Source: Bradymonadia bacterium (lineage in GTDB: Bacteria; Myxococcota_A; Bradymonadia; UBA7976; UBA1532). Taken from it: DNA of 64,000 bases. Each line of letters begins with the position of its first letter. Position 1 is the stretch's first letter. The stretch is taken from positions 28,505-92,504 of the forward strand of contig JBKAGE010000046.1 in assembly GCA_046290225.1 (NCBI GenBank), read 5' to 3'. This document shows positions 7,126 through 58,857 of the stretch, in pieces. Under the pieces are notes generated by a model. That model saw only the letters and a program-made list of their open reading frames with translations. It did no database searches and had not been told where the DNA came from. Made by a program: the position numbers and the translations under genes.

Positions 7126-7132
7126 ACTCACC

Positions 7133-8074: not shown

Positions 8075-8287
8075 TGAGCACTCCCCTCGTTGAGCTTGTC
8101 GTCGCCGCTGAGCCAAAGCTCTCGTCGGCGTCACCCTTCTTTGACCCTGAGGCCTCTACAGGTGTCCCACGGAAAACACCAGAGGGTGGTTGTCACCATA
8201 AGTCGGCCTTGCGCATGGTCGACTGAAGCAGAATCATCCGCGGTTCGAGCCTCGTCGAGACCTCTGTGTTGTATCAGGGAGAGCCCC

Positions 8288-9591: not shown

Positions 9592-9641
9592 GCCGTAGCG
9601 GCGGAGCAAAAGGGCGACTGACGCCGCCGTAGCGGCGGAGC
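9592..9641. repeat. 16-bp direct repeat GCCGTAGCGGCGGAGC x2 at the wza stop
   Basis: Identical copies at 9592-9607 and 9626-9641. Confidence 0.7.
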
Positions 9642-10261
9642 TAGAGCCAGGTCTGGGGGACAAAGATGATGTCGCCGGGTTTGAGCTCGATGTTTTGAGC
9701 TTGACCCTTCCCGATCTTCTCGACGGGGACCACGAACTTCTTCTCGCGCTCACCTCGGCGTCGGGTCACCACCGTCTTGTCTTTATCGGCGAGGTTCTTG
9801 AAGCCACCCGCCAGGGTGATCGCCTGCACGATGGTCATGTCGTCCTCGAAGGGGAAGGTGCCCGGCTTGTTCACCTCACCGAGCACGAAGACCTTCTTCG
9901 AGTTGAACTCTTTGACGAAGACGCTCACCTGCGGATCGCGCAGATATTGAGTCGACAAGCGCTCGGTGATCACCTTCGCCAGCGATGAGGGGGTCTCACC
10001 ATCGGCCTTGACCTGTCCGATGAGCGGGAAGTCGAAGGTGCCGTCAGAGCCCACCCGGTAAGTGCCAGAGAGCTCCTTCTCCTGATATACGCGCACTTCG
10101 AAGACATCGCTGGGGCCCAGCGTCGCCGCCGGCAGCTCAGGCATGGGGGGCAACGTGGTGTCGCCCTTATCGGTGACCTGTTGCTCTGTGACCCCAGAGC
10201 CACCGCCACATGCAGTGAAGAGGAAGATCCCAGCGAGCGTGATGAGGTAGGCCTTGAGCAT
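9641..10261 (-). CDS. wza: Short periplasmic OPX/Wza polysaccharide export lipoprotein (Poly_export + one SLBB domain)
   Basis: Lipobox FTAC, LGPSDVFEVRVYQEKELSG..VGSDGTFDFPLIG, VFVLGEVNKPG, LKPGDIIFVP at the C-terminus. No OM-spanning helix. Confidence 0.92.
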   Translation of the reverse strand: MLKAYLITLAGIFLFTACGGGSGVTEQQVTDKGDTTLPPMPELPAATLGPSDVFEVRVYQEKELSGTYRVGSDGTFDFPLIGQVKADGETPSSLAKVITERLSTQYLRDPQVSVFVKEFNSKKVFVLGEVNKPGTFPFEDDMTIVQAITLAGGFKNLADKDKTVVTRRRGEREKKFVVPVEKIGKGQAQNIELKPGDIIFVPQTWL

Positions 10262-10271
10262 CGTGTGCCTC

Positions 10272-11615
10272 TCAGTACCGTGCCTCGACCTGCAACATGG
10301 TCAGCTGCCGAGTATATGCCGCCTGGTCCTGCTCGTTGACAGGGGCGTTGGTGGGTGAAACGAAGTCAGTGGCGTTGTCTTCGAAGGCCCAGACCACCTT
10401 CACCTGCATCCAGGACTGAAGGTTGTAGCCCAGCTCTGCCCGGGCTCGGAGGATCGGATCCTCGCGAGAGGGCACGTTGGCTCGACGACCAGAATCGCTG
10501 TAGTCGTAGATGTTGTAGCCCAGCTTCGTCTTGACGAAGACCTTCTGGAAGTACAGGTCCAGTGCCGTGTAGGCACCGCGCTGCACCACGTAGTTCGAGA
10601 AGTTGCTTCCGCTCACGTTCCACTCAGCGCCAGCGGTGAAGGCCAGGCTGGGCTGGAGCTTGTACTGGAACTCCGCGAGACCCACAAAGCCGCTGTAGGA
10701 CGCCCCTTCGTCATTGAAGGTGTTGGCGTACCCTGCCCGCAGGTTGGTGGAGATCCGTCGGGAGATCAGACCCTGCAAGCCCAGCTGCACCGTCAGAGGC
10801 TTACCGTCGCGTGTGGGATCCGCCACCGAGTTTCCAGCCTCGTCGGTGCCCGAAAAGCTCTCGCCGTAGTCCGCAAAGGACCACTGCACGTCAAGGAGGG
10901 CCGTGGTCTTCGGGAACAGCTTCAGCCGCGTCAACAGCCGGGTCTTGTGCGTGGTCATCTGTGCTCGACCGGCGTTGATCGCCGAGGCGTCGAAGAACGA
11001 GATGGTGTGCAGGCGATAACCGAGGCTCATCGACAGCGCCCGGGCGAGCGGGTTGCTACCGGGCTGGAAGATGACGTCACCACCGATTTGGTTGTCGAGC
11101 TTCTCGAAGCCGATGACGGTGACCTCGAGGGCAGGCGTGTCGCTGAAGCGCAGACGCTCCACCAGGCGGAAGGCCACACTGTTCTTGGGGAACAGGGTCA
11201 AGCGACCATCGATGGAGCCAGACTCCACCCCATTGCGGGCGTTGACTGCATCTTCTTGCTGAAGGCGCTGGGCCTGCGTCTCTGCATTGGGCTCGAAGCC
11301 CGTGTACTGACGGAGGTTGATGCCCAAACCCAACTGCAACTTCATCTTGTTGGCGTTGCGGTTCTCGGCCTCAAGTGAACCACCGAACTTGAAGACCGCG
11401 GCCCCGTCGGGGTTCTCGGTCTGTTGAGCGCCGGTGTCGTTCTCGTAGAAGATGTTGTCGTCCCAGCCGGCGGCGAAGAAGGCCCCGGGGTGCAGCACGA
11501 AGTTGCCTGCCTGGATGCCCCGCTGCGCTGACTGTGCCGAGGCCCACTGCGGGCTGGCAAGTGCTGCGAAGAGGAAAAGCCCCAAGGGGGTAAGCTGTCG
11601 TCTTGCCCTGGTCAT
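10272..11615 (-). CDS. Outer-membrane beta-barrel partner of OPX (EpsX/Wzp-like porin)
   Basis: Signal peptide, LHPG...GWDDNIF motif, alternating beta-strand pattern, C-terminal aromatic (EARY), position directly upstream of a short wza. Confidence 0.8.
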   Translation of the reverse strand: MTRARRQLTPLGLFLFAALASPQWASAQSAQRGIQAGNFVLHPGAFFAAGWDDNIFYENDTGAQQTENPDGAAVFKFGGSLEAENRNANKMKLQLGLGINLRQYTGFEPNAETQAQRLQQEDAVNARNGVESGSIDGRLTLFPKNSVAFRLVERLRFSDTPALEVTVIGFEKLDNQIGGDVIFQPGSNPLARALSMSLGYRLHTISFFDASAINAGRAQMTTHKTRLLTRLKLFPKTTALLDVQWSFADYGESFSGTDEAGNSVADPTRDGKPLTVQLGLQGLISRRISTNLRAGYANTFNDEGASYSGFVGLAEFQYKLQPSLAFTAGAEWNVSGSNFSNYVVQRGAYTALDLYFQKVFVKTKLGYNIYDYSDSGRRANVPSREDPILRARAELGYNLQSWMQVKVVWAFEDNATDFVSPTNAPVNEQDQAAYTRQLTMLQVEARY

Positions 11616-11664
11616 CCGTGACCTCGTGTGCCGGCGTCGGCAACGTCGTGTTCAGTGCTCAGCG

Positions 11665-12255
11665 TCACTCGTCGGGGCTGACCACGGTGGGCCGATCGAG
11701 CTCGATGGGCGGCAGCGTCAGAGCCGCCTGCTCATCAGGCTGATCGGTACGGATCGCCTCGTCGATGATCCGCTCGACCTGTGTGTCGCCGGTGTACTGA
11801 CTCGAAGCCCCCACACAGCCGGAGATCTCCACGCGGAAGTTCTCTGCGCGGACGGCGGCGATGGAGATCTTGGTGAACTCGTGATCGATCAGCTCCTGGT
11901 CGCCTCGAGCGATGGCTTCACGCATCGAGACGTCAGCCTGCTCGGCGATCTTGAGCAGCCCCTTGATCGCGGAGAGCTTGTCCGAGATGCAGTTGAGCTG
12001 AACGAAGTCTTTCTTCTCGCTGGCGGACTCTCGACTGTTGAAGGCGAGGTCGAGGACCCCCTTCATCTTTTCGATGTCGCCCACCGCGGACTGCATCTTT
12101 TGATCGTTCGACAGGCGGCTGGCCCGTTCGAAGCTGCGCTCGATCTGGGGCCCCTGAGCCAGGGTGGTGCTGGCCCCAGCCAACAGCGCAACGATAGTGA
12201 TCAACCCACGGGCCGACCACCGCTTCATTGCTCGCTGGGGATTGTTCTGGCGCAT
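11665..12255 (-). CDS. Secreted helical protein with two Cys, hypothetical
   Basis: Signal peptide ending TTLA-Q, LNCISDKL and GCVG, strong high-GC codon bias, GGAG RBS. Confidence 0.75.
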   Translation of the reverse strand: MRQNNPQRAMKRWSARGLITIVALLAGASTTLAQGPQIERSFERASRLSNDQKMQSAVGDIEKMKGVLDLAFNSRESASEKKDFVQLNCISDKLSAIKGLLKIAEQADVSMREAIARGDQELIDHEFTKISIAAVRAENFRVEISGCVGASSQYTGDTQVERIIDEAIRTDQPDEQAALTLPPIELDRPTVVSPDE

Positions 12256-12607
12256 GACCTGGACTCCTTGTGAGCTCTACTGCATGCATTGAGACCCCAG
12301 ACCAGGGCCCCGTGGCTCAAATTCGACCAATCTTTCTAGCAGAAATTTCTGCCTGCAGATCGTCGAGCTTGCCGAGCACACGAGGGCCTACATGATTCCA
12401 GGGTGTAATCAGTAAAGACCCACTGAGCTTTTCGGCGTTTCAGCTGCGGGACCTTAGTACAGGTCGCAGGTAAATCGCCACTTTGAACGCACTTGCACCA
12501 CGAAGTCTTCATCGTGCTCCTCGGTGGGCTCAAAACACTCAATGTTAAGGAAAATATCGAAGGAGAGCGGCAGGCGGAGGGGCGTCGAGCGTGTGAGGCG
12601 GGCTCAC

Positions 12608-14023
12608 TTACCCTTGAGGCGAGAACACGAAGGGGAAGGCGAAGTTGATGGAGCCACCGTCGGGCCGCGGGAAGCGCATGCGCTTGAAGCGACCCATGAG
12701 GCACTTGCCCAGCTCGGGGCTGCCGGTGGAGTTGCTCTTCACCTTGGCGCTGCCGACGCGACCGCTCTCGAGAATCTCGAACTGCACGACCACCTTGCCG
12801 GCGAGCTTGTTGTTCTTCTTGAGCTGCTGCTCGTAGCAGCTCTTGAGCGCACCCGAGCGACGCTTGATGACCTTGGCCACCTTGCCGGCGTCGAGAGAGC
12901 CCAGACCGAACTCGGAGTCAGCCTTCGCTGCCACCTTGATGCGGCCAGAGACCTTCTTCTCGGCCTTCCTCGAGGTGGGCCCCTTGGCCACCTTGCGACC
13001 ACCGAGGAGCTCGCTGTTGCTCACAGAGGCGGCCTCACCAGCACCGGCTTTGCCGATGCGGCTTCGGGTGTCACGGCCAGCACCAGGTGCTTTGGCCATG
13101 GCCACACCCGTGGCACCGTCGAAGGCATCTTTCAACGCCACGTTGGTGGCGCCGTCGGTGAGGCTGTCGACGATGGAGCCTGGGCCGTCACCGCCCATGG
13201 TGCCGAGCTGGCTGAGCACGGTCTTGCTGCGCACGTTCTTGCGCATGGCCTGGAACTTCTTCTCTTCGGCCCGGGCCTGCTTCTCGACCTCTTTCTCGGG
13301 CTTGGGGTCTTTCTTCGCCACCTTGGGCTTCTCGACCTTGCGCTTCACCTTCGGCACAGGCTTCTTCTCGACCACCTTCTCCTCAGGCTCTTCCTTTTGA
13401 GGCTTCTCGGGCTCCTCAATGGGCTTCACCTCGGGCTTCTTGATGTCGAGCACCTCGACGAAGCGATCAGGCAGCGCATCGATGCCCTTGGGGGCCTCAG
13501 GGTAGTCCTGGTTCACCATGAAGAGCACGGAGAACACCTGGACCACCATGCTGGCCATGAGGGTGGTCACGAAGGGCCAGTCGAGGCTCTTCATCATGCC
13601 ACCGCGGACCGAGGCCGGCAGCTGCAGCCGCGAGGGCGGCGGCGGTGGGGTCACAAACTGGAAGAGCAGAGTGACCTCGCCGATGACGATCTTGCCTCGG
13701 CTGCGCTCTGACAGCTTCAAGCTGTAGTGCTCACCTCGCTTGGTGGCGAGGTTGCGGCCCTTCAGTGCATCAAAATCGAGGACTGCGTCGTCGACTGAGA
13801 CGCGCCCCTCCATCTCACCCTTGAAGTTGAGGTGGTAGACACCCCCCTTCAACTCGAAGAGCGAGTAACTCCGAGGCAGGGAGCCCACAGGCAACACAAA
13901 GGTGTTCTTGGGGCCCTGGCCAATGGTTACGCCTTCGCGCTTCCGAACCAGTCGCTCCTCGATCACCTTCGCGTTCTGGATGATTCCGATGCGAAGGATT
14001 TTGCGTTCGTTGTTGGACGCCAT
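12608..14023 (-). CDS. GltG/PglI-like TonB-type energy transducer (FHA-like N-terminus, TM, Pro/Lys/Glu linker, AgmX/PglI C-terminal TonB-C-like domain)
   Basis: N-terminal beta-rich VTIGQGPKNTF, single TM, KPEVKPIEEPEKP linker, C-terminal ALKSCYEQQLKKNNKLAGKVVVQFEI..G.V..CL..FPRP.GG..FAFPFVF. Confidence 0.85.
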   Translation of the reverse strand: MASNNERKILRIGIIQNAKVIEERLVRKREGVTIGQGPKNTFVLPVGSLPRSYSLFELKGGVYHLNFKGEMEGRVSVDDAVLDFDALKGRNLATKRGEHYSLKLSERSRGKIVIGEVTLLFQFVTPPPPPSRLQLPASVRGGMMKSLDWPFVTTLMASMVVQVFSVLFMVNQDYPEAPKGIDALPDRFVEVLDIKKPEVKPIEEPEKPQKEEPEEKVVEKKPVPKVKRKVEKPKVAKKDPKPEKEVEKQARAEEKKFQAMRKNVRSKTVLSQLGTMGGDGPGSIVDSLTDGATNVALKDAFDGATGVAMAKAPGAGRDTRSRIGKAGAGEAASVSNSELLGGRKVAKGPTSRKAEKKVSGRIKVAAKADSEFGLGSLDAGKVAKVIKRRSGALKSCYEQQLKKNNKLAGKVVVQFEILESGRVGSAKVKSNSTGSPELGKCLMGRFKRMRFPRPDGGSINFAFPFVFSPQG

Positions 14024-14177
14024 CTCCAGAATCCTTTCGACTTCCCCGATCAGGCCACTTCAAGGTGTGCCTTCAACGCTTCAGGTTATCCATCGGAACG
14101 GGTTGTAGCCACCTAAAGAACTGCGGTCCAGATGACCCTACCCACCCCCAACGCTGTAACTTCAGCCCTGAGCACCT

Positions 14178-14243
14178 AAATAAAAAGCCGGCATCTCACG
14201 CCTTATTCTTCTTTTTTAAGAAGAACAGGTGGGTGATGCCGGC
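14178..14243 (-). terminator. Long hairpin with U-tract (intrinsic terminator or attenuator) between exbD-like and gltG-like genes
   Basis: GCCGGCATC..TTCTTCTT-TTTT-AAGAAGAA..GATGCCGGC stem, followed on the minus strand by TTTTTATTT. Confidence 0.65.
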
Positions 14244-14354
14244 CCTTGCCTTGCCCTGCGCTTCGACCCGAAACGCTGCGACCCGAATTGGTCACAAGCA
14301 AGGTGGAGTGTGCCTGAGTCGTTTTTAACCGCTCAGCTTTAACCTCGCAGCGCT

Positions 14355-14936
14355 CTAACCTCGCTGTGCCCCCTTGAGCACAGCGAACTTGAACTTGGCG
14401 AACTCTGCCTGACCTGCGGTGTACAACACCTCGGTCAGGAGCCGGTAAGGCACCTTCCGGTCGGCGATGACCGTCAGCAGACCCTGGAACTTGCCGCCGC
14501 GCAGGGTGGCGATCTGCTTCTGGTTCGTTGCTTCTTTGTTCAACGCTTCAAAAAGCGGTTCGATCCGAAGAGCGGTTTCATCACCGGCTTTGTAGACCTT
14601 GTCCACCATGCCGTCCTTGATGGAGACCACCTCTTTGTCGGAGACGATGATCGACTTGCCCGTGATGACCACAGCAGCACTCTGCTCCGGGTTGATGTCC
14701 GTGGTGGACGCCGGCAGCTGCAGGTCGGGGAAGTCGACCTTCAACGGATCGACGGAGTAGTTGATGAGCAGGAACACCAGGATGATGGTCATGGCGTCCA
14801 TCAACGAGTTGATGGTCAGCCCACCCTCTGCTGCGGGGAGGCGACGACCACGACGCTCCTGGCGCTTACGGGCCTGCTCGTTGGCCAGCCACTCCTGGAT
14901 GACTTCTTCTCGAGTCTTTGGCTTCTGATCAGACAT
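14355..14936 (-). CDS. ExbD/TolR family protein (AglS-like)
   Basis: TM LTINSLMDAMTIILVFLL with conserved Asp, LQLPAST, IADRKVPYRLLTEVLYTAGQAEF. Confidence 0.88.
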   Translation of the reverse strand: MSDQKPKTREEVIQEWLANEQARKRQERRGRRLPAAEGGLTINSLMDAMTIILVFLLINYSVDPLKVDFPDLQLPASTTDINPEQSAAVVITGKSIIVSDKEVVSIKDGMVDKVYKAGDETALRIEPLFEALNKEATNQKQIATLRGGKFQGLLTVIADRKVPYRLLTEVLYTAGQAEFAKFKFAVLKGAQRG

Positions 14937-14998
14937 TGATCTCTCTTACTTTCACCAGGGGGCCTTACAGAAAGAAGGGCTGAAAAACCTGCCCTCGC

Positions 14999-15610
14999 TC
15001 ACTGCGCAACAGATAGGACCACGTCAGGCCACAAAAGTTCCTGCTGGCTGTCTTTTTGCTTCGGCTTTGCTGACTGGAACGCGGCGAGATCGTCGTAACG
15101 CTGCCCCTCGAGACGCAGTCGGAGCACGTCCATCGTCTTGATGACGAACTGGTACTCGGTCTTGGCGTCTGCGGTGAGCGTGACGATGTTCTCGTTGGGG
15201 TGCATATCCTTGATGGCCACCATCTTGTTGTAGAGCTCGACGAAATTGTAGTTCCCGTTCGAGTCCTTGGGGATGGTGGGGCCTTGCTGCTCTGTAGGCT
15301 CAGGCGGCGGGGCCGTGGGATCGAAGTTCTCGGGGCCGGTGATCCCAGGGATCACCACTGAGGCGCTCAGACGGAAGCCGTCTTCTGCGAGTGCCACGGT
15401 GAGGTTGAGCGGCTTCTCGTCGCTCTCCACCGCCTCGGACTTGCCCATACCAAACTTGGGGGTGTTGACGTTCACCACACCGAGCTGAACGAAGGAGGCC
15501 CCGAACAACACCATCGGGATGAGGCACACCACCAGGTTCATGATGGGCACCAAGTTCAGATCTTCGATCTCGGTGTCGACTTTCTTTTTGGCTGACGGAC
15601 GTCGGGCCAT
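14999..15610 (-). CDS. ExbD/TolR family protein (AglQ-like), Asn at the channel Asp position
   Basis: DLNLVPIMNLVVCLIPMVL TM, LTADAKTEYQFVIKTMDVLR, LWPDVVL. Confidence 0.85.
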   Translation of the reverse strand: MARRPSAKKKVDTEIEDLNLVPIMNLVVCLIPMVLFGASFVQLGVVNVNTPKFGMGKSEAVESDEKPLNLTVALAEDGFRLSASVVIPGITGPENFDPTAPPPEPTEQQGPTIPKDSNGNYNFVELYNKMVAIKDMHPNENIVTLTADAKTEYQFVIKTMDVLRLRLEGQRYDDLAAFQSAKPKQKDSQQELLWPDVVLSVAQ

Positions 15611-15745
15611 GGTCAGGTGCTCCTCAGAGGATGCAGGTCCGTGATTTGGGGTGTGATGCGGGGACGATGACTCTCAGGCACGAGGCCCAAACGTCACAAG
15701 GGGCGCCCCGCCTCAGGCCACCCCTCTCTCAGACAGTGAGATTGC

Positions 15746-16399
15746 TCAGCGGTTCTCGCCGGCGCCGCCGTGGAGCCGGGAGATGAGCAGGTTCTCGAGC
15801 TTGACCGAGTACTGGTCGATCTCGTCGATGATCTTCTTGGTCACCGAAGCGAGGAAGACCTGAGCGGCCAGACAGGGGATGGCCACGATGAGGCCGAAGG
15901 CGGTGGTGTTCATGGCCACGGAGATACCGTTGGCCAGGAGACGCTGACGATCCTCGGGGGGAATGCCTTCCTTCGCGAGGGCGTCGAATGCGCCGATCAG
16001 ACCGATAATCGTACCGAGCAGACCGAGCAGGGTGGCGATGTTCGCGATCTGCTGGAGCACCGTGGTGCGCTTGGTGACGATGGGCACGATCTCCAGGGTG
16101 GCCTCTTCAACGGCGTTCTGGATCTCTTCGGGGCCCTTGTTGGCCCGAGTGAGGCCGGCCTTGATCACCTTGGGCAACGCAGCGGAAGGCGCGGCGTTGC
16201 ACAGTTTGATGGCGCGGTCAATGTTGTTCGCCATCACGAGCTTCTGGATCTGAGCCATGAAGGCGCCGGCGTTGATGTTGTACTTGAAGTACAAAAAGAT
16301 GAACCGCTCGATCATCACGCCGAGAGCGATGATGCTCATGAAAAGGATGGGGTGCATCCAGCCCCCACCCTTCTGGTAGAAATCCGCGACAACCTGCAT
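15746..16399 (-). CDS. MotA/TolQ/ExbB proton channel (AglR-like)
   Basis: GGGWMHPI, ANIATLLGLLGTIIGLIGAF, LLANGISVAMNTTAFGLIVAIP. GGAGG RBS. Confidence 0.93.
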   Translation of the reverse strand: MQVVADFYQKGGGWMHPILFMSIIALGVMIERFIFLYFKYNINAGAFMAQIQKLVMANNIDRAIKLCNAAPSAALPKVIKAGLTRANKGPEEIQNAVEEATLEIVPIVTKRTTVLQQIANIATLLGLLGTIIGLIGAFDALAKEGIPPEDRQRLLANGISVAMNTTAFGLIVAIPCLAAQVFLASVTKKIIDEIDQYSVKLENLLISRLHGGAGENR

Positions 16400-16670
16400 T
16401 CGACGCTTCCTCCGGTCGGATGAAGAGGCTGTTCTGGGACCTGGCAAAAGCGAATTCTAGTAGAAGCCAGGCTGGGCAGATGTCAGTGCCCTTTGGTCAA
16501 ACCCAGAGTCTCTCAACCCCTCGATAACTCAGTGATAATCTTTAAGTTTTTACGTGCATCTTGCGATACCCGCCACCTAATACCACTCTCTAGAAACGGT
16601 GGTCCACAATTTTCTGAAGCAGGGAAGGATTTTGCCCCGGATCGGTGGATTCAGGTGGGGGTAAATGTAG

Positions 16671-16916
16671 TCAGAAGGGATCTTTTTCCACACTCTTGAG
16701 GATCAAAGGCAGGAAGCTCTTCTTTGGCTCCAAGTCTTTGAACTCCAACTCTCTACGCTGCAAGATATAGAACGCTTCGGGCTTTTGGATGATGCCTTCC
16801 ACGACCATCTCGTCGAGGGTCACCACCGGCGCCGGACTCCGACGACGATTCTGTGCCTCGGCAGAAGAAACGCTCAACAGCGTGCCTGCACACACCACAT
16901 ACATCCATGTACGCAT
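16671..16916 (-). CDS. Small secreted GltF/CglF-like protein
   Basis: Signal peptide, then VEGIIQKPEAFYILQR..F..SF..I.KSVEKDPF. Lies right after the GltE-like gene. Confidence 0.7.
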   Translation of the reverse strand: MRTWMYVVCAGTLLSVSSAEAQNRRRSPAPVVTLDEMVVEGIIQKPEAFYILQRRELEFKDLEPKKSFLPLILKSVEKDPF

Positions 16917-16929
16917 GATTCAGACTCCT

Positions 16930-18408
16930 TCAGCCTTCGCCATCGGCCCCATCGGAGGGCTCTGAGGGCGCATCTTCGGTGGGGGCCTCTCCCCCACCCT
17001 CCGCAGGCTCACCACCAGCATCTTCTGCTGATTCGGCACCACCCTCGGCCCCTGCCTCTCCTGACGACTCTACAGAGGGCGACTCTTCAGAGGGCGGCTC
17101 TTCAGGAGGCGGCTCGGGGGTCTTGGGCTGGTTGCGTTGAGCCTCTTTACGCTTTTGCTCCACCACGATGCGCTTGCGCGCCTCTTTGATGTAGCCCTCT
17201 ACCCGAGTCCGCATGTCGCCGTCAGCCCTGGGCATGTACTGTTCCAGGTAGCGTACGGACTGGTTGAGCCGCATCTCCGGATCCATGTCGGGGACCGCAG
17301 CATCGAGGTAGAAGATGCCCAGATTGTAGAGCACCTTGGGCTCCGCTGGGGCAAGGGACTCGGCTTTTTTAAGCGCCTGGAGGGCCTCGGTGAACTTCTG
17401 CTGGCCCTTGAGGGCGTTGCCGAGGTTCACGTGGGCCGGCAACATGTCGGGCCACCGCGCGATGGCCTTGCGGAACTGCTCTTCAGCCCCAGGAAAGTCG
17501 CCTGCCTTGGCGTAGATGAGGCCCAAGTTGTTGTGGGCCTCGGGGCCAGCGCCGCCTTCTTGCTGGACTGCCCGCTCCAGGGCGAGCTGGGTGTTGATGT
17601 CCTCGCCCATCGTCTGGTGGGAGAGCGACATACGGTAGTCGATGTCGGGATCATCCCCACGCAGGGCCTTGGCGTTCTTCAAGATGGCCACGGCGAGCTC
17701 GTGCTTGCCCTGCTTGGCATAGGCGCCGGCGAGGATCTTCATCGCGTCGACGTTGCGCTCGTCTCGCCGCAACACCTGCTTGCACGAGGTGATGACCGTC
17801 TCGGGGTTCCCGAGCTCGAGACGCACATGGTTCACGGCGTTGGCGAGGCCGTTGCTTTCGGGATCACGAGCGGCGGCGGCTTCGGCATAGCGCAGGGCCC
17901 CCGAAGAGTCACCCTGACGCATCATCAGGTTGGCGATGCCGATGACCGCAGGACCAAAATCGGGCCGCACCTGCAAGGTGGCCTCGTATGCGCGACGTGC
18001 CCCCCCGTAGTCGCCCTGCCACTCTTTGAGCACGGCGAGGTTGTAGAGGGGCTCCGCAAAGCCCGGATCGGACTGGGCGGCCTCTTCGAATCGGGCCCGG
18101 GCGCTGTTGAGATCGCCACTCGCAGCAGATCGCTTGCCCTCTTCGAGCATGGCGAGAGCGACGTCGCGCACCTTGGGGGCTTCGTCGACCTTCTGCTCGG
18201 GGATCTCGGTGGCGCCTGCGGCCTCTGGAGGCTTCTCCGCAGGCGTCGTCGCGGGCTTCTCTGCGGTCTTGGGCGCTTCGGCCTTCGTCGCTTCGGGATC
18301 AGCAGTGCTGGTCTTGGTCTGCTGCCCACCACATGCGCTCAGGGCGCCGAGAAGCAAGATACCGCTGGCGAAGCGGACCACGTGAGAGGTGTGCGTGTCG
18401 TTGCTCAC
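16930..18408 (-). CDS. TPR lipoprotein (GltE/AglT-like)
   Basis: Lipobox LSAC, multiple TPRs (YNLAVL, HNNLGLIY, HVNLGNAL, YNLGIFY), acidic tail. Confidence 0.85.
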   Translation of the reverse strand: MSNDTHTSHVVRFASGILLLGALSACGGQQTKTSTADPEATKAEAPKTAEKPATTPAEKPPEAAGATEIPEQKVDEAPKVRDVALAMLEEGKRSAASGDLNSARARFEEAAQSDPGFAEPLYNLAVLKEWQGDYGGARRAYEATLQVRPDFGPAVIGIANLMMRQGDSSGALRYAEAAAARDPESNGLANAVNHVRLELGNPETVITSCKQVLRRDERNVDAMKILAGAYAKQGKHELAVAILKNAKALRGDDPDIDYRMSLSHQTMGEDINTQLALERAVQQEGGAGPEAHNNLGLIYAKAGDFPGAEEQFRKAIARWPDMLPAHVNLGNALKGQQKFTEALQALKKAESLAPAEPKVLYNLGIFYLDAAVPDMDPEMRLNQSVRYLEQYMPRADGDMRTRVEGYIKEARKRIVVEQKRKEAQRNQPKTPEPPPEEPPSEESPSVESSGEAGAEGGAESAEDAGGEPAEGGGEAPTEDAPSEPSDGADGEG

Positions 18409-21400
18409 TTCGATCCCTCCGGCGTCGCCACGGGCACTGCGGGGGCGTCTTCCTCTTCGGGGGTGGCCTCTGGCGTCTTCGGCGGCGTCACGGGCTCATC
18501 CTCGGGCTCCTCTTCTGGCGGAGGCGGAGGCGAGAGCAGTTGTGGCGCCACTCGAGGCTGACTGGCCATCACGGGATCAGCCCGCTTGAAGACGGGGTAG
18601 TCGCTGGGCTTGTACTTGTTGAGCGACTCCAGGATCCGCTGGGTCCACTCGCTGTTGACCTTGAACTCCTTCGCCTTCTGATAGGCGATCTCGTAGCGCT
18701 CCACGGCCTTGTCCTCGATGGGCAGGGCGATGTCCTCGAGCTCGCTTCGGTAGAGGTCTTCCTCGTCCATGCTGAAGCTGCTGGGGATCGGGGCGTCGTA
18801 CAGGTCTTCGGCGAAGAGCTGGTAGATGTGGCCGAGCCGATAGAAGGCGGCGATGGTCCACTCCAGTGACTTGAACTGCGTGACCTCGGTGAACTTGCGC
18901 TCGAGATCCTTGATGCCCGCGAGCATCTTCTTGATGGTGCGGCCCTGGTTCTTCACCGAGCCGGTGAGCTTGAGGGCTTCGTACTGCTCGAAGTCCATCT
19001 CCGCGAGCAAGAACGACGCCTTGGCAGGGTACTGCGACTCGAGGGTGCCCATGGGCATGGCCCGGGCGTTGAACTCGTTGATCACCTTCTGATAGGCCTT
19101 GCGGGCTTTGCGCTGGTTGCGCTTGCCAGCGTAGGTGTCGGCGATCTTCGAGAGGCACTCGATGACAAGGCCGTTGTTCTTCGGATCTTTGCCGTAGCGC
19201 TTGATGAAGCTCTCGTAGATGCGGATCTCGTTCTTGTCGTCACCGAGCTTCTTGTAGTTGAGCGCCGCCTGATAATAGGTCTTGGCGGTGTCTTCCCGCT
19301 CGGGGAACAGCTGGGCGTACCGCTGGAAGTTCTGCGCAGCCTCTCGATATTGCTGGTTCTGCTCCTGGAGCAGGGCAGCTTGGTACAGGGCGTCTGCCCG
19401 GTACTTCGAATCTTCGTACTTGCCCACAAGGGCGAGGTTGGTCTCGATGGCCCGCTCGAAGTCGTAGAACCGCTCGGCGTTGATCGCCACCCGGTACAGG
19501 GCGTTCTCTGCGAACTCGCTGTCGGGGTAGTCCTTGTAGATGCGCTGATAGGTGTTCGTCGCTGATTCGAACCGACGGGTCTTCTCGAAGGCCACAGCGG
19601 CGTTGTTCAACGCCCGGTCGGCGTACTTGTTCTCGGGGTTCTCGTCGACGAGGCGGATGTACTCCTCGGCGGCCCGCTCGTACTTCTCGTCGTTGAAGAG
19701 CTTCTCGGCCTGCTTGAACAGCGCCCCCACCTTCAGCCGCTTGATCTCGCCCCGGAGCACATCGCGCTCTTCTTCGCTGCCGATGTTGGCGTTGGCGATG
19801 ATCTCTGACCACTCGGCCATCTTCTTCCAGTCGTTGGTCGCCCGGTACGACTGGATGATATTGTTGGCGGCGATGCTGGTGACACTGGCCTTGGGGTAGT
19901 TCTCGATGAGCCAGCTGAACCATGCCCGGGCTTTGTCGTAGTGCTTGTAGTCGAAGTAGGTGTCGCCCATGTCGAAGGCGATGCGGGCCCGCAGCGTCGG
20001 ATCGTCGGGGTTCACCAGCTCGCGCTTGACGTACACCTCTCGATCCGTCTGCAGGTTCATCACCACTTCGGGGATCTCTTCAGGCTCGACGACGATGATG
20101 CCGTCGGTCTCCTCGTCGGGCACGGCGGGGGGCTCAGCGTCTGCTGGGGCCTTGGCGTCGGGGCCCAGCAACGAGAGCTTGGGCTCGATCTCATTCCGGG
20201 CGATGGCCTCGCGTACGGCGTTCTGCCACGCGAGGATCGCCGAGGTGCCGCTGTCTTCGGCGTACTTTTCACCAAGCTTCGAGTCTCGGACCTGGGCGTA
20301 CTGCTTTGCCGCCTCGGGGTACCGAAACGAGTAGTAGAGACACTCAGCGTAGAAGTAAGCGAGCTCGTAGGTGTTGTCGGACTTCGGGTACCGATCGAGA
20401 TACTTCTCGTATGCGGTGGCCGCCTGCTCGTACTCACCGATGAACTCATCGGTCCTCTCAGGATCGCCCCCTGTGGCGGCTTTGAGATCCTGGGCCCGGG
20501 TGTGGTGGTAGGTGGCGGCCTGAATCAATGCCTGCTCAGCAAGACTCTCCGCCACCTCGAGGGCCTTCCCGGAGTTCTCGTTGGCTTTGTACCAGGCGCT
20601 GCCCTCACCATAGTTGTCGGCGAGCGCGTCACGCTCGGCGAAGGCCTTGTCGTATTCCTGCAAACGCTCGTACGCCAGGATCATCTGGTTGTGCAGCTCG
20701 GGGTTGTCGGGGTTCTCCGGGAACCGATCGAGCAAGAACCGGATGGCGGCGATGGACTCCTGGTACTTGGCGTTGTCGAAGTAGATGCGAGCCAGCTCTT
20801 TGAGGACCTCGACCTCATAATCCTTCTCACCGCTGAGGAACCGCAGGGCCCGGTCGAACCCGCCGTCTGCATCTGCTTCACCGTCGCCGTCCCAATCTTC
20901 TTCTTGAAGTGAGATGGCGAGGTACAAGATGGCTTCGCCGCGCAGCTCGGTGGCCTTCTTCCCCGTACGCGCTTCGCGATCGTCAGCGTATTCGATGAGG
21001 GTCTTGAAGCGGTCGATGGCCTTCTCGTACTGGTCGTCGCGGTAGTAGGTCCAGGCGAGCTTGTAGAGGCCCTTGTCGAAGTAGACGCTGTCCTTGAACT
21101 CCATCACCTTCAGATAGGCGGCGATGGCTTTGTCGAGCTGGTTGTAGTCGAAGTAGTACTCGCCGATGCGCATGTACGACTCGGGCACGAACTGGCTGTC
21201 GGGCATGCGCTGCACGAGGGCGAGGAACTGGTCGAGGGCTTGGCGATCTTCGCCCATCTCCAGCAGGCAGTACCCCTTGAGGTAGTACGCCCCGTCGATG
21301 TTGCTGTACCCGGGCCAGTTGTTGATGAGCCGCTCGAAGAGCGCGATGGTCCGCAGATAGTTCTGCTTGGGCTCGACGGGCTCGACCTCGAGCTTGCCGT

Positions 21401-22175
21401 CTTCAAAGGCGAGCATCTGCTCGTCGAACCGCTCCAGCGCCGAGATGTAGCTGTCGTTCGACTTCTCGAAGTGCAGCTCGGCGAGACGGAAGATGGCGTT
21501 GGGGGTGTGGGTCTTGTGGTTCGGGTACTTCGCCAGGAACTCTTCGAAGCGCCCAATGGCATCGTCTCGGCGACGACGCTCTTCTTCAACGAGCTGATCG
21601 ACGAGGGCAGCATACTGAGAGCGAATGCCCTCACGGCGGCGCTCATATTGGAACTGCACCATGCGGGTCACGTCGCGCCGGTAGGCCTCGGTCTCCTGCT
21701 CGAAGCCTGCGAGCTCTTCGATCATCTCCGCGAGATCTGCAGGGATGCTGGGATCGCGCTCGGTGATGGCGGGTACGTCAGGTGCGGGCTCTGAGGCCTC
21801 GCTCTGTGCCGAAGCCTCTGCTGCAGCCGCTGCAGCCTTCAGAGGGTTGGTGGGCTCAGCGCCTTCCTCTTCTGCCTTTGGGGGTGCCTCAGCAGCGGAC
21901 TCTGCGCTTTCTCCCTGGGCCGCTTCACCCTCAGCAGCGGGCTCCGCGGGGGCCTCTGCTGAAGATGGGGCCGCGGCAGGCGTCTCGGTGGCGCCGTCAG
22001 CGGGTGTGTCAGCGGGTGTGTCAGCGGGTGTGTCAGTGGGCGCCTCGTCGGCGGCCCCCTCTGCGGGCTGATCCGGGGGGTTCTGGGCGACCGCCGGGCT
22101 CAGCGCAAAAAACAGTGCCCCAGCACACAGCCAGGGCCACCGCTTGCCTTCTTGTCTGCCAGTTCGCCTAGTCAC
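18405..22175 (-). CDS. Large secreted TPR protein (GltD/AgmU-like)
   Basis: Signal peptide, Ala/Pro/Glu linker, AIFRLAELHFE, YMRIGEYYFD, LYKLAWTYY, C-terminal WTIAAFYRLG..APIP..Y..L...A.PIEDKA. 1256 aa. Confidence 0.87.
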   Translation of the reverse strand: MTRRTGRQEGKRWPWLCAGALFFALSPAVAQNPPDQPAEGAADEAPTDTPADTPADTPADGATETPAAAPSSAEAPAEPAAEGEAAQGESAESAAEAPPKAEEEGAEPTNPLKAAAAAAEASAQSEASEPAPDVPAITERDPSIPADLAEMIEELAGFEQETEAYRRDVTRMVQFQYERRREGIRSQYAALVDQLVEEERRRRDDAIGRFEEFLAKYPNHKTHTPNAIFRLAELHFEKSNDSYISALERFDEQMLAFEDGKLEVEPVEPKQNYLRTIALFERLINNWPGYSNIDGAYYLKGYCLLEMGEDRQALDQFLALVQRMPDSQFVPESYMRIGEYYFDYNQLDKAIAAYLKVMEFKDSVYFDKGLYKLAWTYYRDDQYEKAIDRFKTLIEYADDREARTGKKATELRGEAILYLAISLQEEDWDGDGEADADGGFDRALRFLSGEKDYEVEVLKELARIYFDNAKYQESIAAIRFLLDRFPENPDNPELHNQMILAYERLQEYDKAFAERDALADNYGEGSAWYKANENSGKALEVAESLAEQALIQAATYHHTRAQDLKAATGGDPERTDEFIGEYEQAATAYEKYLDRYPKSDNTYELAYFYAECLYYSFRYPEAAKQYAQVRDSKLGEKYAEDSGTSAILAWQNAVREAIARNEIEPKLSLLGPDAKAPADAEPPAVPDEETDGIIVVEPEEIPEVVMNLQTDREVYVKRELVNPDDPTLRARIAFDMGDTYFDYKHYDKARAWFSWLIENYPKASVTSIAANNIIQSYRATNDWKKMAEWSEIIANANIGSEEERDVLRGEIKRLKVGALFKQAEKLFNDEKYERAAEEYIRLVDENPENKYADRALNNAAVAFEKTRRFESATNTYQRIYKDYPDSEFAENALYRVAINAERFYDFERAIETNLALVGKYEDSKYRADALYQAALLQEQNQQYREAAQNFQRYAQLFPEREDTAKTYYQAALNYKKLGDDKNEIRIYESFIKRYGKDPKNNGLVIECLSKIADTYAGKRNQRKARKAYQKVINEFNARAMPMGTLESQYPAKASFLLAEMDFEQYEALKLTGSVKNQGRTIKKMLAGIKDLERKFTEVTQFKSLEWTIAAFYRLGHIYQLFAEDLYDAPIPSSFSMDEEDLYRSELEDIALPIEDKAVERYEIAYQKAKEFKVNSEWTQRILESLNKYKPSDYPVFKRADPVMASQPRVAPQLLSPPPPPEEEPEDEPVTPPKTPEATPEEEDAPAVPVATPEGSK
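21996..22036. repeat. In-frame 12-bp tandem repeat (GTCAGCGGGTGT x3.4) encoding TPAD repeats in the linker
   Basis: Exact copies at 21996, 22008 and 22020. Confidence 0.85.
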
Positions 22176-24474
22176 TCAGCTCATCCCTGAAATCACGATC
22201 GAGGGCTTGCAGCTCGCTGTTTTGCCGTTCGAGCTGACGCGTAATGCGATCGGACTGGTCCTTTTTCTGTTTCCAGGCGACATCGATCAAACCGACGTCG
22301 GCCTCGAGGACCACCGAATCTACCCGTTCGAGCACCATATTGAAGCTACGGGCGGCGATGCGGCCACTGAGGGATTCGGTCTCCCCCTGATAGGCCAGCA
22401 GCTCACCGTCGTATTGCTCCACACGGGCTCGCTCGCGAACGAGCTGCCGTTTCAGATCAGCCACCTTGTCGTCGACGAGGGCGCCCGCCTGGGACAGGAA
22501 CGCCCGGGCTCGGCGCTCCGACTCGCTCAGCTGACGCGTGATCTCACCGGAGATCGGGGCGCCGTTCCGAGCAAGCCATGCCGCTTCGCGATCCAGGGCC
22601 TCGACGAGACGCTTGCGAATGCGCTCGTCGTAGACCGTGGCCTCGTCGTTGGTGCCGATCTGAAGGCGATCATCTGAGATCTTCGCCTTCAGCTTCTCGA
22701 GCTCGTCCTTGAGCGTCTTCATTTCGTTGAGTTCGATGGAGATCCGGCCGAGCAGCTCTTGTCGCTTGCGGACCAGCTGCTCGTCGTCGCGGCTCTCAGC
22801 AACGTAGCGTTCCATGGCCACGAGCTGCGCTTCGAGCCCACGGATCTGAATGCCCACCTTGAAGGCCTCGGCGTCGACGGCAGCGATCTCGTCGTCGATG
22901 CGGGCATCACGAGCCTGAATCTGTACCGCGGAGGTGGGCACCTCGGAGAAAGCCTTGGCCCACTTTTGCCGCTCGGCCTTGAGCCGGGTGTACTGGCTGT
23001 CGTTGGGGTTCGACAGCTTCCGCTCTGCAGTCTCGTTCAGCTTGAGGCGCAGCTTCACCGTCCAGGACAGGATCTCTGCGGCCTTGAGCCAGCCCTCGTG
23101 CAGCTTGGGGAAGATCTCCACCCGGTTGTCCGCGTTCAGAGCGGTCTCGAGCCGTTCGATGATGCGGCGGGCTTCATCGATGGAGCGCTTCTCGGCGCCG
23201 AGCTCACCCACCAGTTCGAGGGCGGTGTCGGCCTCGACCTCACTGCCCGCGAAGGCCTCTGCTCCAGGGGGCAGAATGGAAGACAGCTCGAAGTCGGCGA
23301 GCTCTTCACCGATGAGATCGTGGAAGTAGCGCTCGAGACGGCCCCGCTGAGACTCAGCGAGGCTGCGCATCTGGGCCTGGATCGGGCCAAACTCGAAGAG
23401 CACCTCTTGAAATGCCAGCGAGGCGTCGGTGTAACGCTCGAGCATCATGAGCAACTTGCCCTGCAACAGCCGGGTGTCGGGGCGCTCCAGCACGTCAGGC
23501 TGGCTGATGAGCAGAATCTCAAGGCGCCGGAGGGCTTCCTCGTAGCGGTTCTGCTTCACGGAGATCCAGACGCTCTCGTAGAGGGCATCTTCGAAGTAGC
23601 TCGAGTCACGGGGCACCCGCGTGTACGCCTCGACGGCCTCGGCGAAGAGCCCCAGCTCGTAGTTCACGCGAGCGATGGCCAGCAGCGATAGATCTCGGAT
23701 CTCTCGGGCCTGTCGAGTGGGCGCACCACGACCGGCCTGGCCCGCTTTCTCTACTCGAGTCGCCACAGCTTCGAATGCAGCGCGGGCCTCTTCGAGGCGA
23801 CCGGCCTCTACGAGGAGTACCGCCTGATAGTAGCGCGCTCTCGGCGCATCGCTGTGGCTGTCAGGTACACGATCGAAGTAGCTCTGGGCCTTGTCCAGCT
23901 CACCACGCTGGTGGTGATACTTGCCTACGGCGTAGAGCAGCACCGGATCAGGCTCGGCCTTGAGCAGGTTGTCGGCGCGCTCCAGCAACTGACGAGCGGC
24001 CTCGTCGTCTTCGGAGATGAGGGCGATCTCGAGGAGACGGCCCACGCCTTTTTGCTGTTGCTCGGCGGTGCCCGCGGTGATCAGCATCTCGTAGAAACGA
24101 GAGGCGGCGTTGTAATTGCGGATCTGGTACAGCGCGTCGGCGAGGTAGACCAGCGCATCACGCCACGCAGGGTGGGTGCGCACGCGCGGATCTTCTACTA
24201 GGTCGAGCAGTATCATCGCCGCCCGGACATAGTCACCCGAGAGGTAGTAGAGCTGCCCTTCGCTCAGCCGCGAGGTGATCTGGTAGTTGCGCTCCAGCAG
24301 CTCGGGGGCGAGGTACTGCTGTTCCAAGCCACTCAAGATGCCGGTGATCTGAGAGAGATCTTTGCGCACATCGTCTTCGGGCCCGCTCTGGGCGGTGCCG
24401 GCAAAGAACGCCAGCGCCATGGAGAGCACCCCGGTACGGCGAGCGGTGGCATTGAGCAGAGTGGCCATGTTCAT
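22168..24474 (-). CDS. Secreted TPR/coiled-coil protein (GltC-like)
   Basis: Signal peptide, LAIARVNYELG..AVEAYTRVPRDSSYFEDALYESVW, long C-terminal coiled coil, VLEADVGLIDVAW. Confidence 0.8.
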   Translation of the reverse strand: MNMATLLNATARRTGVLSMALAFFAGTAQSGPEDDVRKDLSQITGILSGLEQQYLAPELLERNYQITSRLSEGQLYYLSGDYVRAAMILLDLVEDPRVRTHPAWRDALVYLADALYQIRNYNAASRFYEMLITAGTAEQQQKGVGRLLEIALISEDDEAARQLLERADNLLKAEPDPVLLYAVGKYHHQRGELDKAQSYFDRVPDSHSDAPRARYYQAVLLVEAGRLEEARAAFEAVATRVEKAGQAGRGAPTRQAREIRDLSLLAIARVNYELGLFAEAVEAYTRVPRDSSYFEDALYESVWISVKQNRYEEALRRLEILLISQPDVLERPDTRLLQGKLLMMLERYTDASLAFQEVLFEFGPIQAQMRSLAESQRGRLERYFHDLIGEELADFELSSILPPGAEAFAGSEVEADTALELVGELGAEKRSIDEARRIIERLETALNADNRVEIFPKLHEGWLKAAEILSWTVKLRLKLNETAERKLSNPNDSQYTRLKAERQKWAKAFSEVPTSAVQIQARDARIDDEIAAVDAEAFKVGIQIRGLEAQLVAMERYVAESRDDEQLVRKRQELLGRISIELNEMKTLKDELEKLKAKISDDRLQIGTNDEATVYDERIRKRLVEALDREAAWLARNGAPISGEITRQLSESERRARAFLSQAGALVDDKVADLKRQLVRERARVEQYDGELLAYQGETESLSGRIAARSFNMVLERVDSVVLEADVGLIDVAWKQKKDQSDRITRQLERQNSELQALDRDFRDELSD

Positions 24475-24478
24475 CGCC

Positions 24479-25285
24479 TCAGGGCTTCTTCTCGGCGCCC
24501 TCGTTCAAGCGCGCCGTGGTGGCCTGAGCCTGGAGATCCTGGACTTGCTTGTCGTATCGGATGCTCGGCCGCTCCTGCAGATCAGTGGTGAGGCCGCCCT
24601 TCTCGTACCCGACGATGCGGATCACGGTGCGCTTGCCCTCTTCGGCGTAGAAGGTTTCCGAGGAGCGCAGCTTGAAGACGTACCCTTCGAGGTAAGAGAA
24701 GATGCCGTAGCCGTGACCCCGGTACACCATCACCACGGAGACGGTGTGGTTTCCGGGAGGAATCGGCCCGTCAAGGATGGGGATCTCTTCTCGCTCGTCG
24801 AGGCTGCCCTCACGATCGACGTCCTGATAGATGGGACGCCCGTCGAGGCTGTACGACACCTTCTCAAGCTTGAAGCTGGAGCCCATCTCGTTGCGGTGCA
24901 GCAGCTGGATCTCAGCGCCGGCGATGCCGGTGTCGAGGATGGAGCTCTTGAGCATGTTCAGCCGCACCTTGGACTGAAAGATCTTCTCCTTGAGATCGTT
25001 CACGCGTCGACGAAGCTGAGTGATTTTCAGCTTATAGGCTTCATCCCCACTCTGAGGTCTGGCAGCGTTGCCCTTGGGCTCCTTCTGTACCTCAATGGTG
25101 GTTCCGGCAGCGTCGGCGGAGACGCCCTCTTTCGGCGGCGTGCTGGGTGCAGGTCCTTCTTTGGGTGTGGTGCGCCCAGCAGGATCGCCCTGAGGCTCAC
25201 CCTGAGCCCAGGCACAGGCGGGGGTCAAAGCCACCCCAGCCAAGATCAAGAGGACACATTGAAGAGCGCTGCGCATGATGTCCAT
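24479..25285 (-). CDS. Secreted protein (short coiled coil plus beta-sandwich), first gene of the Glt-like block
   Basis: Signal peptide AWA-Q, VNDLKEKIFQSKVRL coiled coil, PGNHTVSVVMVYRGHGYGIFSYL. Confidence 0.75.
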   Translation of the reverse strand: MDIMRSALQCVLLILAGVALTPACAWAQGEPQGDPAGRTTPKEGPAPSTPPKEGVSADAAGTTIEVQKEPKGNAARPQSGDEAYKLKITQLRRRVNDLKEKIFQSKVRLNMLKSSILDTGIAGAEIQLLHRNEMGSSFKLEKVSYSLDGRPIYQDVDREGSLDEREEIPILDGPIPPGNHTVSVVMVYRGHGYGIFSYLEGYVFKLRSSETFYAEEGKRTVIRIVGYEKGGLTTDLQERPSIRYDKQVQDLQAQATTARLNEGAEKKP

Positions 25286-31240: not shown

Positions 31241-31243
31241 GAC

Positions 31244-54602: not shown

Positions 54603-54718
54603 GCTGGCTCGGGCATCATTGACAGGGCCCATGGTCGCTGCATAGATAGACACTCGGGCTCTTCCACATGGCGTGGTCGGGCCTTCACAGCAACGCTTCT
54701 CGAGGGTTGAGACGCCAT

Positions 54719-56416: not shown

Positions 56417-56429
56417 GGGCCGCTGCTTC

Positions 56430-57521: not shown

Positions 57522-57636
57522 CCGAGACACGCTGTTGTCCAGCGCTCACCGGGCGCCTTTGCTCGACGGGCCTTGATGGAGGTAACATGCGACCACACCA
57601 GAGCGCTCCTCGGGCGCCTGATGATCGGAGGTCTTG

Positions 57637-58853
<1,217 letters not shown>

Positions 58854-58857
<4 letters not shown>

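What the first reader, a model, noticed from the sequence alone, without database searches (positions are those of the whole stretch)
9641..25285. Complete Agl-Glt core motor co-located with a Wza/beta-barrel polysaccharide exit channel: candidate PMF-powered polysaccharide secretion machine
Seen: co-oriented, closely spaced genes for a secreted protein, GltC/D/E-like TPRs, a GltF-like peptide, a TolQ-like channel, two ExbD-like subunits and a GltG-like TonB-type protein, followed by a secreted protein, an OM barrel and a short OPX. Wzc and sugar enzymes follow in the same orientation. Known: in Myxococcus, AglRQS drives Glt (gliding) and Nfs (spore coat), and the motor genes are usually unlinked from glt genes. 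Short OPX proteins pair with an EpsX/Wzp barrel. From memory (unverified), a glt paralog cluster lies next to wzaB/wzpB in M. xanthus. Inference: this cluster carries its own motor and has no GltA/B/H barrels, so the TonB-C-like domain may act on the polysaccharide porin, energising export or surface spreading rather than gliding.
Basis: partly seen in the sequence, partly recalled or inferred. Interest (0 to 1): 0.85.

Follow-up and report, generated by a model that had tools for sequence, protein, structure and literature searches.

The report
Orphan motor joins polysaccharide exit pore
A proton-motor gene set and a gliding-like envelope scaffold sit in one widely conserved gene block with a sugar-polymer exit pore, and they likely act on that pore, which would give a job to two gene clusters of unknown function in the model bacterium Myxococcus xanthus.

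Summary
The 12-gene block is real and conserved. GltG, a small secreted protein and the barrel stay linked in 31 of 34 Myxococcota family codes examined, while flanking genes turn over. The Glt genes are orthologues of M. xanthus cluster G4, and the barrel/OPX of WzpB/WzaB, the biosurfactant-polysaccharide exit. The motor is not AglRQS: it groups (100/100) with the M2 type, MXAN_3003-3005. G4 and M2 have no known function; this operon unites them with the pore. Physical coupling is not shown. Against an essential role in export: G4 and M2 mutants were reported motile, and three f14 genomes keep the pore without a G4-type GltG. The motor is this genome's only three-gene Agl-type motor, so it may be shared. 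Best reading: a motor-driven accessory that positions or gates the pore and spreads the polymer. The scan earlier noted similar motor-Wza pairings in Fibrobacterota (not checked here).

The parts
24479..25285 (-). Secreted protein of no known family, specific to this operon type; one copy in most genomes; likely counterpart of the gene between mglA and MXAN_1923
   Evidence: 110 of 141 phylum genomes; 50% identity to the same-position gene in L254/L255; no Pfam/NCBIfam hit
22168..24474 (-). G4-type GltC: TPR half plus an all-helical C-terminal arm ending in a 125-residue helix
   Evidence: NF033756 below cut-off; model pLDDT 91.5; the genome's other two GltC match only profile positions about 32-426
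18405..22175 (-). GltD-like TPR scaffold
   Evidence: TPR families; 35% identity over about 1100 aa to the 1112-aa gene of L255; MXAN_1922 is 1111 aa
16930..18408 (-). GltE-like TPR lipoprotein
   Evidence: NF033758 E 9e-30, below cut-off
16671..16916 (-). GltF-like secreted peptide with a conserved TonB-box-like segment (resemblance recalled) and C-terminal helix
   Evidence: alignment; 51% identity to L254/L255 gene
15746..16399 (-). AglR/TolQ-like proton-channel subunit, M2 (MXAN_3003) clade
   Evidence: PF01618; start by alignment; trees
14999..15610 (-). First ExbD-like subunit; Asn25 where ExbD proteins usually carry Asp
   Evidence: PF02472; column N 87, S 17, A 7 of 113 rows
14355..14936 (-). 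Second ExbD-like subunit with invariant membrane Asp47
   Evidence: PF02472; D in 109 of 109 rows
12608..14023 (-). G4-type GltG: no N-terminal FHA, one membrane segment, linker, TonB-like C-terminal domain
   Evidence: NF033760 matched at profile 224-649 only, NF033768 over cut-off; 34-35% identity to the 445-447-aa gene of L254/L255
11665..12255 (-). Small secreted two-cysteine helical protein of no known family that travels with the barrel; candidate adaptor; likely counterpart of MXAN_1917
   Evidence: 96 of 141 genomes; barrel directly downstream in 59 of 60 regions; Atlas look-alikes unnamed, Myxococcota
10272..11615 (-). 18-stranded outer-membrane barrel, WzpB type
   Evidence: model; same position as the 421-aa barrel of L254/L255, 21% identity
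9641..10261 (-). Short class-3 OPX lipoprotein, WzaB type
   Evidence: PF02563 + SLBB; best PDB match 9N9A E 5e-54, which is WzaB
3593..8134 (-). Epimerase, nucleotide-sugar dehydrogenase and fused Wzc, co-oriented but outside the block
   Evidence: separated by a plus-strand gene at 8090-9211

Best explanation
The block encodes an M2-type three-subunit proton motor, a G4-type Glt scaffold and a WzpB/WzaB-type polysaccharide exit pore, and these likely form one trans-envelope machine in which the motor positions or gates the pore and spreads the secreted polymer, rather than driving gliding. Shown: gene content, order, conservation, orthology to G4, M2, WzaB and (by position and fold) WzpB, and the invariant Asp. 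Inferred from the published gliding model: the motor turns GltG, whose C-domain grips GltF and GltD, and force passes to GltC. Inferred here and untested: the G4-specific helical arm of GltC, with the 268-aa and 196-aa secreted proteins, replaces the GltA/B contact and reaches the barrel. The role is likely accessory, like Agl-Nfs acting on spore coat after its secretion, and not the energy source for every export event.
For: Sixty regions anchored on the 196-aa gene: barrel next in 59, GltG before in 52, OPX after the barrel in 45, motor inside in 33. Anchored on the far end, in genomes with no 196-aa hit: 10 of 11 with a long enough contig still end in GltG-small ORF-barrel (3 more were cut by contig ends). 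Anchored on the motor: of 61 loci with 6.5 kb downstream, GltG 56, barrel 55, OPX 54. Myxococcia: GltG 19, barrel 19, OPX 19 of 20. In 5 of 5 genomes tested where the OPX lies elsewhere, the single barrel of this family stays with the Glt genes. [quoted passage not shown] Operon motors and M2-sized motors share a branch of length 1.01, support 100/100, apart from AglRQS-sized motors. MXAN_3003 did not interact with GltG or NfsG, and the MXAN_3004 deletion sporulates. G4-type GltC differs from the other GltCs in its C-terminal half. WzpB and WzaB bind each other and are needed for BPS (PMC12819527).
Against: A polar MXAN_1922 (G4) mutant and an MXAN_3004 deletion had no appreciable motility defect (PMC3169522 text and legend; the figure itself could not be seen), whereas wzpB and wzaB deletions impair swarm spreading. 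Three of three f14 genomes tested have no G4-type GltG, and f14, f10, f40 and one f4 genome have the block broken, with the pore beside Wzc. The motor is absent from the block in 19 of the 52 GltG-linked regions and in 18 of 20 Myxococcia regions; G058 has the block but its only AglR-type motor falls in the other clade. A 352-bp gap could hold a separate promoter, and co-transcription is unshown. In 40 of 52 genomes (my count) the operon-type motor is the only AglR-type one, so it may serve other Glt systems. Kin are not independent.
Confidence: 0.45

Rival explanations
1. The Glt/motor half and the pore half are neighbours kept together by shared regulation, with no physical coupling.
For: 352-bp gap at the junction; median gap 105 bp over 50 loci, from longest-ORF starts; breaks at or near this junction in f10, f40 and G033; mutants without motility phenotype.
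Against: Flanking genes turn over while the junction persists in 31 of 34 family codes; the barrel stays with Glt when the OPX leaves.
Confidence: 0.2
2. It is a motility or adhesion machine that uses the barrel as its outer-membrane anchor, with polysaccharide as track or slime.
For: Sole AglR-type motor in this genome and in 40 of 52; mglA directly upstream in 15 of 20 Myxococcia regions; FG-GAP proteins of 1273-1601 aa inserted before the 196-aa gene in L074, L224, L247.
Against: G4 and M2 mutants glide, and G4/M2 do not replace glt/aglRQS; no GltA/B and no N-terminal FHA; mglA is adjacent in only 1 of 55 mostly non-Myxococcia loci.
Confidence: 0.15
3. The motor is the obligatory energy source that pulls the polymer through the barrel, TonB-style, with the GltG C-domain acting on the porin.
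For: TonB-like domain; invariant Asp47; the energy input of class-3 export is left speculative in PMC12819527.
Against: The published model binds the domain to GltF/GltD; a WzaB octamer is modelled on the barrel's periplasmic rim; f14 lacks this GltG; no mutant motility phenotype.
Confidence: 0.12
4. It is a Tol-like envelope-maintenance or barrel-assembly system, and the pore is merely a client.
For: TPR proteins hit CpoB/BamD-like models; ftsK follows the barrel in 8 of 10 large downstream genes scanned from loci lacking an adjacent OPX.
Against: A separate TolQ/TolR-type locus exists in the genome; TPR hits are generic.
Confidence: 0.08

Closest known systems
M. xanthus G4 glt cluster (MXAN_1919-1923) and M2 motor (MXAN_3003-3005), function unknown (PMC3169522)
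   Same: Same genes, order and sizes (768/1256/492/81/471 aa here against 809/1111/490/91/447); motor in the M2 clade.
   Different: Here the motor lies inside the cluster and Wzc is nearby; in Myxococcus-type genomes motor and Wzc are elsewhere. The passages read do not link G4, M2 and the pore.
BPS class-3 OPX/porin translocon WzaB-WzpB-WzcB (PMC12819527, PMC9603273, PMC9601211)
   Same: Short OPX lipoprotein (about 57% identical to WzaB by my count), adjacent 18-stranded barrel, fused Wzc.
   Different: Arg-Asp for the Arg-Arg motif and Trp-Leu for the terminal Phe-Phe; the published model has no motor, Glt scaffold or MXAN_1917-like protein (term searches).
Agl-Nfs spore-coat machine (PMC3858216)
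   Same: Agl-type motor plus Glt paralogue proposed to act on a Wza-exported polysaccharide.
   Different: Nfs has GltA/B/H-type barrels, uses AglRQS, and is separate from the Exo export site; here the only barrel in the block is the pore itself.
Agl-Glt gliding machine and the seven-gene core complex (PMC3169522, PMC11761067)
   Same: GltC/D/E/F/G and a TolQ + 2 ExbD motor; clustering of motor and core is known in gamma-proteobacteria and Geobacter.
   Different: No GltA/B barrels, no N-terminal FHA, a long-armed GltC, two extra secreted proteins, and a polysaccharide pore.

Membership tests
Agl-Glt core complex | GltC, D, E, G homologues plus TolQ + two ExbD subunits | tested here: met
   GltD by orthology to a gene matching MXAN_1922 in size and place
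M. xanthus G4 cluster | Order C-D-E-F-G, long GltC, short FHA-less GltG, position between mglBA and wzpB/wzaB | tested here: met
   L254/L255 reproduce the published sizes and order; window proteins 28-51% identical for C-G. M. xanthus sequences themselves were not in hand.
G1/G2 gliding machine | GltA/B-type outer-membrane barrels in the cluster | tested here: not met
   TIGR04565 absent from the window, present on C43 and C34
G1/G2 gliding machine | GltG with N-terminal FHA, over the NF033760 cut-off | tested here: not met
   155 bits against 650, profile 224-649 only; an FHA-type GltG is on C75
AglRQS (M1) motor | Groups with AglRQS-sized motors | tested here: not met
   three-gene tree, 100/100 separation; on TolQ alone an M1 grouping was not rejected, p-AU 0.32
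M2 motor (MXAN_3003-3005) | Groups with free motors whose ExbD subunits are 173 and 193 aa | tested here: met
   M2 identified by size, not by sequence; nested versus sister unresolved (53/39)
Class-3 OPX/porin translocon | Short OPX without a membrane helix, next to an 18-stranded barrel | tested here: met
BPS pathway (WzaB type) | Twin-Arg and terminal di-Phe motifs of WzaB | tested here: inconclusive
   RD and WL here; RR and FF in L254/L255
BPS pathway (WzaB type) | Exports a biosurfactant polysaccharide | not testable with these tools
   polymer identity unknown in this organism
Motor-coupled export machine (proposed) | Physical contact between Glt scaffold and barrel module | tested here: inconclusive
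   see Tried and rejected

The most novel reading that the evidence does not exclude
The ancestral Myxococcota Agl-Glt machine was a proton-powered polysaccharide secretion and spreading apparatus built around a class-3 OPX/porin channel. It survives intact in this operon and in three pieces in M. xanthus (G4 + MXAN_1917 + wzpB/wzaB; M2; the wzcB cluster), where M2-G4 acts directly on BPS export.
Probability: 0.35. Interest if true: 0.9.

Novelty: new variant of a known kind. Interest (0 to 1): 0.74.

Why it matters
G4 and M2 were described in 2011 as of unknown function, and library searches for their locus tags found only the 2011 and 2013 papers. The class-3 export papers read do not mention the neighbouring glt cluster. 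The conserved operon predicts specific partners (MXAN_3003 with MXAN_1919; MXAN_1917 with WzpB) testable with existing M. xanthus genetics. It bears on two open questions: what the core Agl-Glt complex did before gliding, and whether porin-based polysaccharide export has a proton-driven step.

Tried and rejected
Complex prediction of barrel + 196-aa protein + GltC residues 405-768, scoring GltC: no answer, score 0.00, controls not folded; no evidence either way, and only one of several possible pairs was tried. Inter-protein covariation over 61-120 paired loci was dominated by near-invariant columns and did not single out expected pairs: uninformative. RNA-library contigs from four runs (shares 0.08-0.10, contigs only) covered parts of the block, including one piece across both exbD-tolQ gaps; none of the 32 listed pieces (168 not shown) bridged gltG and the 196-aa gene: uninformative on co-transcription. 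The idea that small membrane genes between gltF and gltG in motor-less loci are decayed tolQ was not supported (hhalign probability 1.3-1.7%). Fold searches gave only generic barrels and generic TPRs. PDB sequence searches with the barrel and 268-aa alignments found nothing at E<0.001. A sigma-70 scan gave 2 sites against 2.8 expected. Two alignments were too variable for the named-genome scan. Searches gave relatives without useful names or context. Agrebi et al. 2015 (doi 10.1038/nrmicro3431) is not held; I saw only its title in a reference list, and it may already discuss such gene linkages. bioRxiv supplements were closed, so the fitness tables of 10.64898/2026.08.28.747804, which may cover G4, M2 and BPS genes, were not seen. 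Trees left out long-branch or duplicated rows (L103, L118; also L106 in 138) and kept one operon motor per family code plus the window's.
Full report
Observation. The twelve genes are present as described on the minus strand. The barrel is 18-stranded in a confident model and the OPX is closest to WzaB, PDB 9N9A. The 268-aa and 196-aa secreted proteins match no family. Three gaps of 271-352 bp interrupt the block, and Wzc with the sugar enzymes lies past a hairpin and an opposite-strand gene. The closest named relatives include records titled Bradymonadia bacterium, so the window likely comes from an uncultured member of Myxococcota.

Conservation. The 196-aa gene is in 96 of 141 and the 268-aa gene in 110 of 141 sampled phylum genomes. 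I fetched 60 regions around the 196-aa gene, chosen to spread over families: barrel next in 59, GltG before in 52, OPX after the barrel in 45, TolQ inside in 33, Wzc within about 7 kb in 19. To avoid defining groups by the junction I anchored elsewhere. Of 14 genomes with the 268-aa gene but no 196-aa hit (one weak hit, G041, left out), 11 had long enough contigs and 10 ended in GltG, small ORF, barrel. Of 80 motor-anchored named loci, 61 had 6.5 kb downstream: GltG 56, barrel 55, OPX 54; these overlap the first set and lean to close relatives. Twenty of 40 Myxococcia genomes with a hit were fetched: GltG 19, barrel 19, OPX 19, motor 2, Wzc 0. By family code the link holds in 31 of 34. Flanks turn over. 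In five genomes whose OPX lies elsewhere, the single barrel stays with the Glt genes and none of seven OPX loci has such a barrel within 1.5 kb.

Exceptions. In f14 the block breaks after gltF and no G4-type GltG was found in 3 of 3 genomes; in f10 and f40 it breaks after gltG; one f4 genome is also broken. In these the 196-aa gene, barrel, OPX and Wzc stay together, rearranged in f40. The 196-aa protein is thus a barrel companion, and the pore can persist without the G4 transducer.

Identity with M. xanthus loci. L254 and L255 read mglB, mglA, 268-aa homologue, GltC 810, GltD 1112, GltE, GltF 90, GltG 445-447, (cNMP protein in L254), 196-aa homologue, barrel 421, OPX with RRPQV and ESFF. This matches mglA/B MXAN_1925/1926, G4 sizes, hypothetical MXAN_1917, WzpB to residue 421 and WzaB 204 aa. 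Window proteins are 21-56% identical to these. M. xanthus sequences were not fetched, apart from the WzaB alignment; the assignment rests on order, sizes and motifs.

The motor. Five Myxococcus-type genomes each hold two free motors; in G191 they are sized 245/173/193 and 245/162/194, matching the ExbD sizes of M2 (260/173/193) and all three of AglRQS. A three-gene tree of 43 motors puts 18 operon motors, the five M2-sized ones and six other free motors on one side of a long branch, 100/100. TolQ alone is weaker, and whether M2 arose from within the operon motors is unresolved (53/39). M2 is dispensable for motility and sporulation and did not bind GltG or NfsG, so its partner is open; G4 GltG is the natural candidate. 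In the window's genome this is the only TolQ + 2 ExbD motor among seven MotA/ExbB genes, beside two more Glt clusters and GltA/B barrels, so it may be shared.

Mechanism. In the published model the GltG C-domain binds GltF and GltD, and GltC contacts the barrels. The GltC here shares only its TPR half with the genome's other GltCs and has a long helical arm instead. I infer that this arm and the two new secreted proteins link scaffold to pore. This is untested. Because G4 and M2 mutants were reported motile while wzaB/wzpB mutants spread poorly, and f14 lacks the transducer, an accessory role in positioning, gating or spreading is more likely than obligatory energising.

Literature seen. PMC3169522: abstract, parts 1 and 5 of the main section, passages, supplement 1 and rows of supplement 8. 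PMC3858216, PMC9601211, PMC9603273, PMC7484181, PMC4880591 and two bioRxiv preprints (2026.09.26.754727, 2026.08.28.747804): passages. PMC7310880: passages, section 6, supplement rows. PMC11761067: abstract, section 7, first part of section 11, passages. PMC12819527: abstract, first part of the discussion, passages. Searches for MXAN_1917-1924 tags and a guessed range of RS tags found nothing; subscription papers are mostly outside the library.

Verdict. Real and conserved; a new variant of the Agl-Glt/Nfs kind that joins two orphan clusters of a model organism to its BPS exit pore on genomic evidence. Coupling and function remain to be shown.

Noticed in passing
L074:7506-12308, L224:14312-18709, L247:9478-13296: FG-GAP repeat proteins of 1273-1601 aa inserted between gltG and the 196-aa gene; a 1594-aa gene without Pfam hit sits there in L258.
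   Followed up: partly
L247, L248, L254, L258, directly after gltG: cNMP-binding proteins (148-478 aa) inside the operon in several Myxococcia, a possible cyclic-nucleotide input.
   Followed up: partly
L241-L260: mglA lies directly upstream of the operon in 15 of 20 Myxococcia regions.
   Followed up: partly
L261, L262, L263, L269, L271: M1-clade and M2-clade motors stand head to head in five genomes.
   Followed up: partly
window 14999-15610: Operon-embedded motors carry Asn/Ser instead of Asp in the first ExbD, whereas free M2- and M1-type motors have Asp in both.
   Followed up: partly
L079, L080, L081, L091, L098, L099, L101, L115, L117: A small membrane protein of unknown family occupies the motor's place between gltF and gltG in motor-less loci; homology to TolQ not supported.
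   Followed up: partly
L083, L084, L093, L094, L096, L102, L108, L110: ftsK follows the barrel in loci that lack an adjacent OPX.
   Followed up: partly
G000:C75 about 303000-314600 and C43 about 57900-68000: Two further Glt clusters without a motor; C75 has an FHA-type GltG, C43 a GltA/B barrel and two GltF genes.
   Followed up: partly
window 29102-32338: Two zinc-ribbon/TPR proteins, one with a weak GltJ-like N-terminus.
   Followed up: no
window 54668-62029: pilB, pilT, pilC, pilS, pilR-like type IV pilus genes.
   Followed up: no
L230:14815-17376: Wzy_C/O-antigen ligase-TPR gene a few kb beyond the window start; no Wzx or Wzy was seen next to the Wzc.
   Followed up: no
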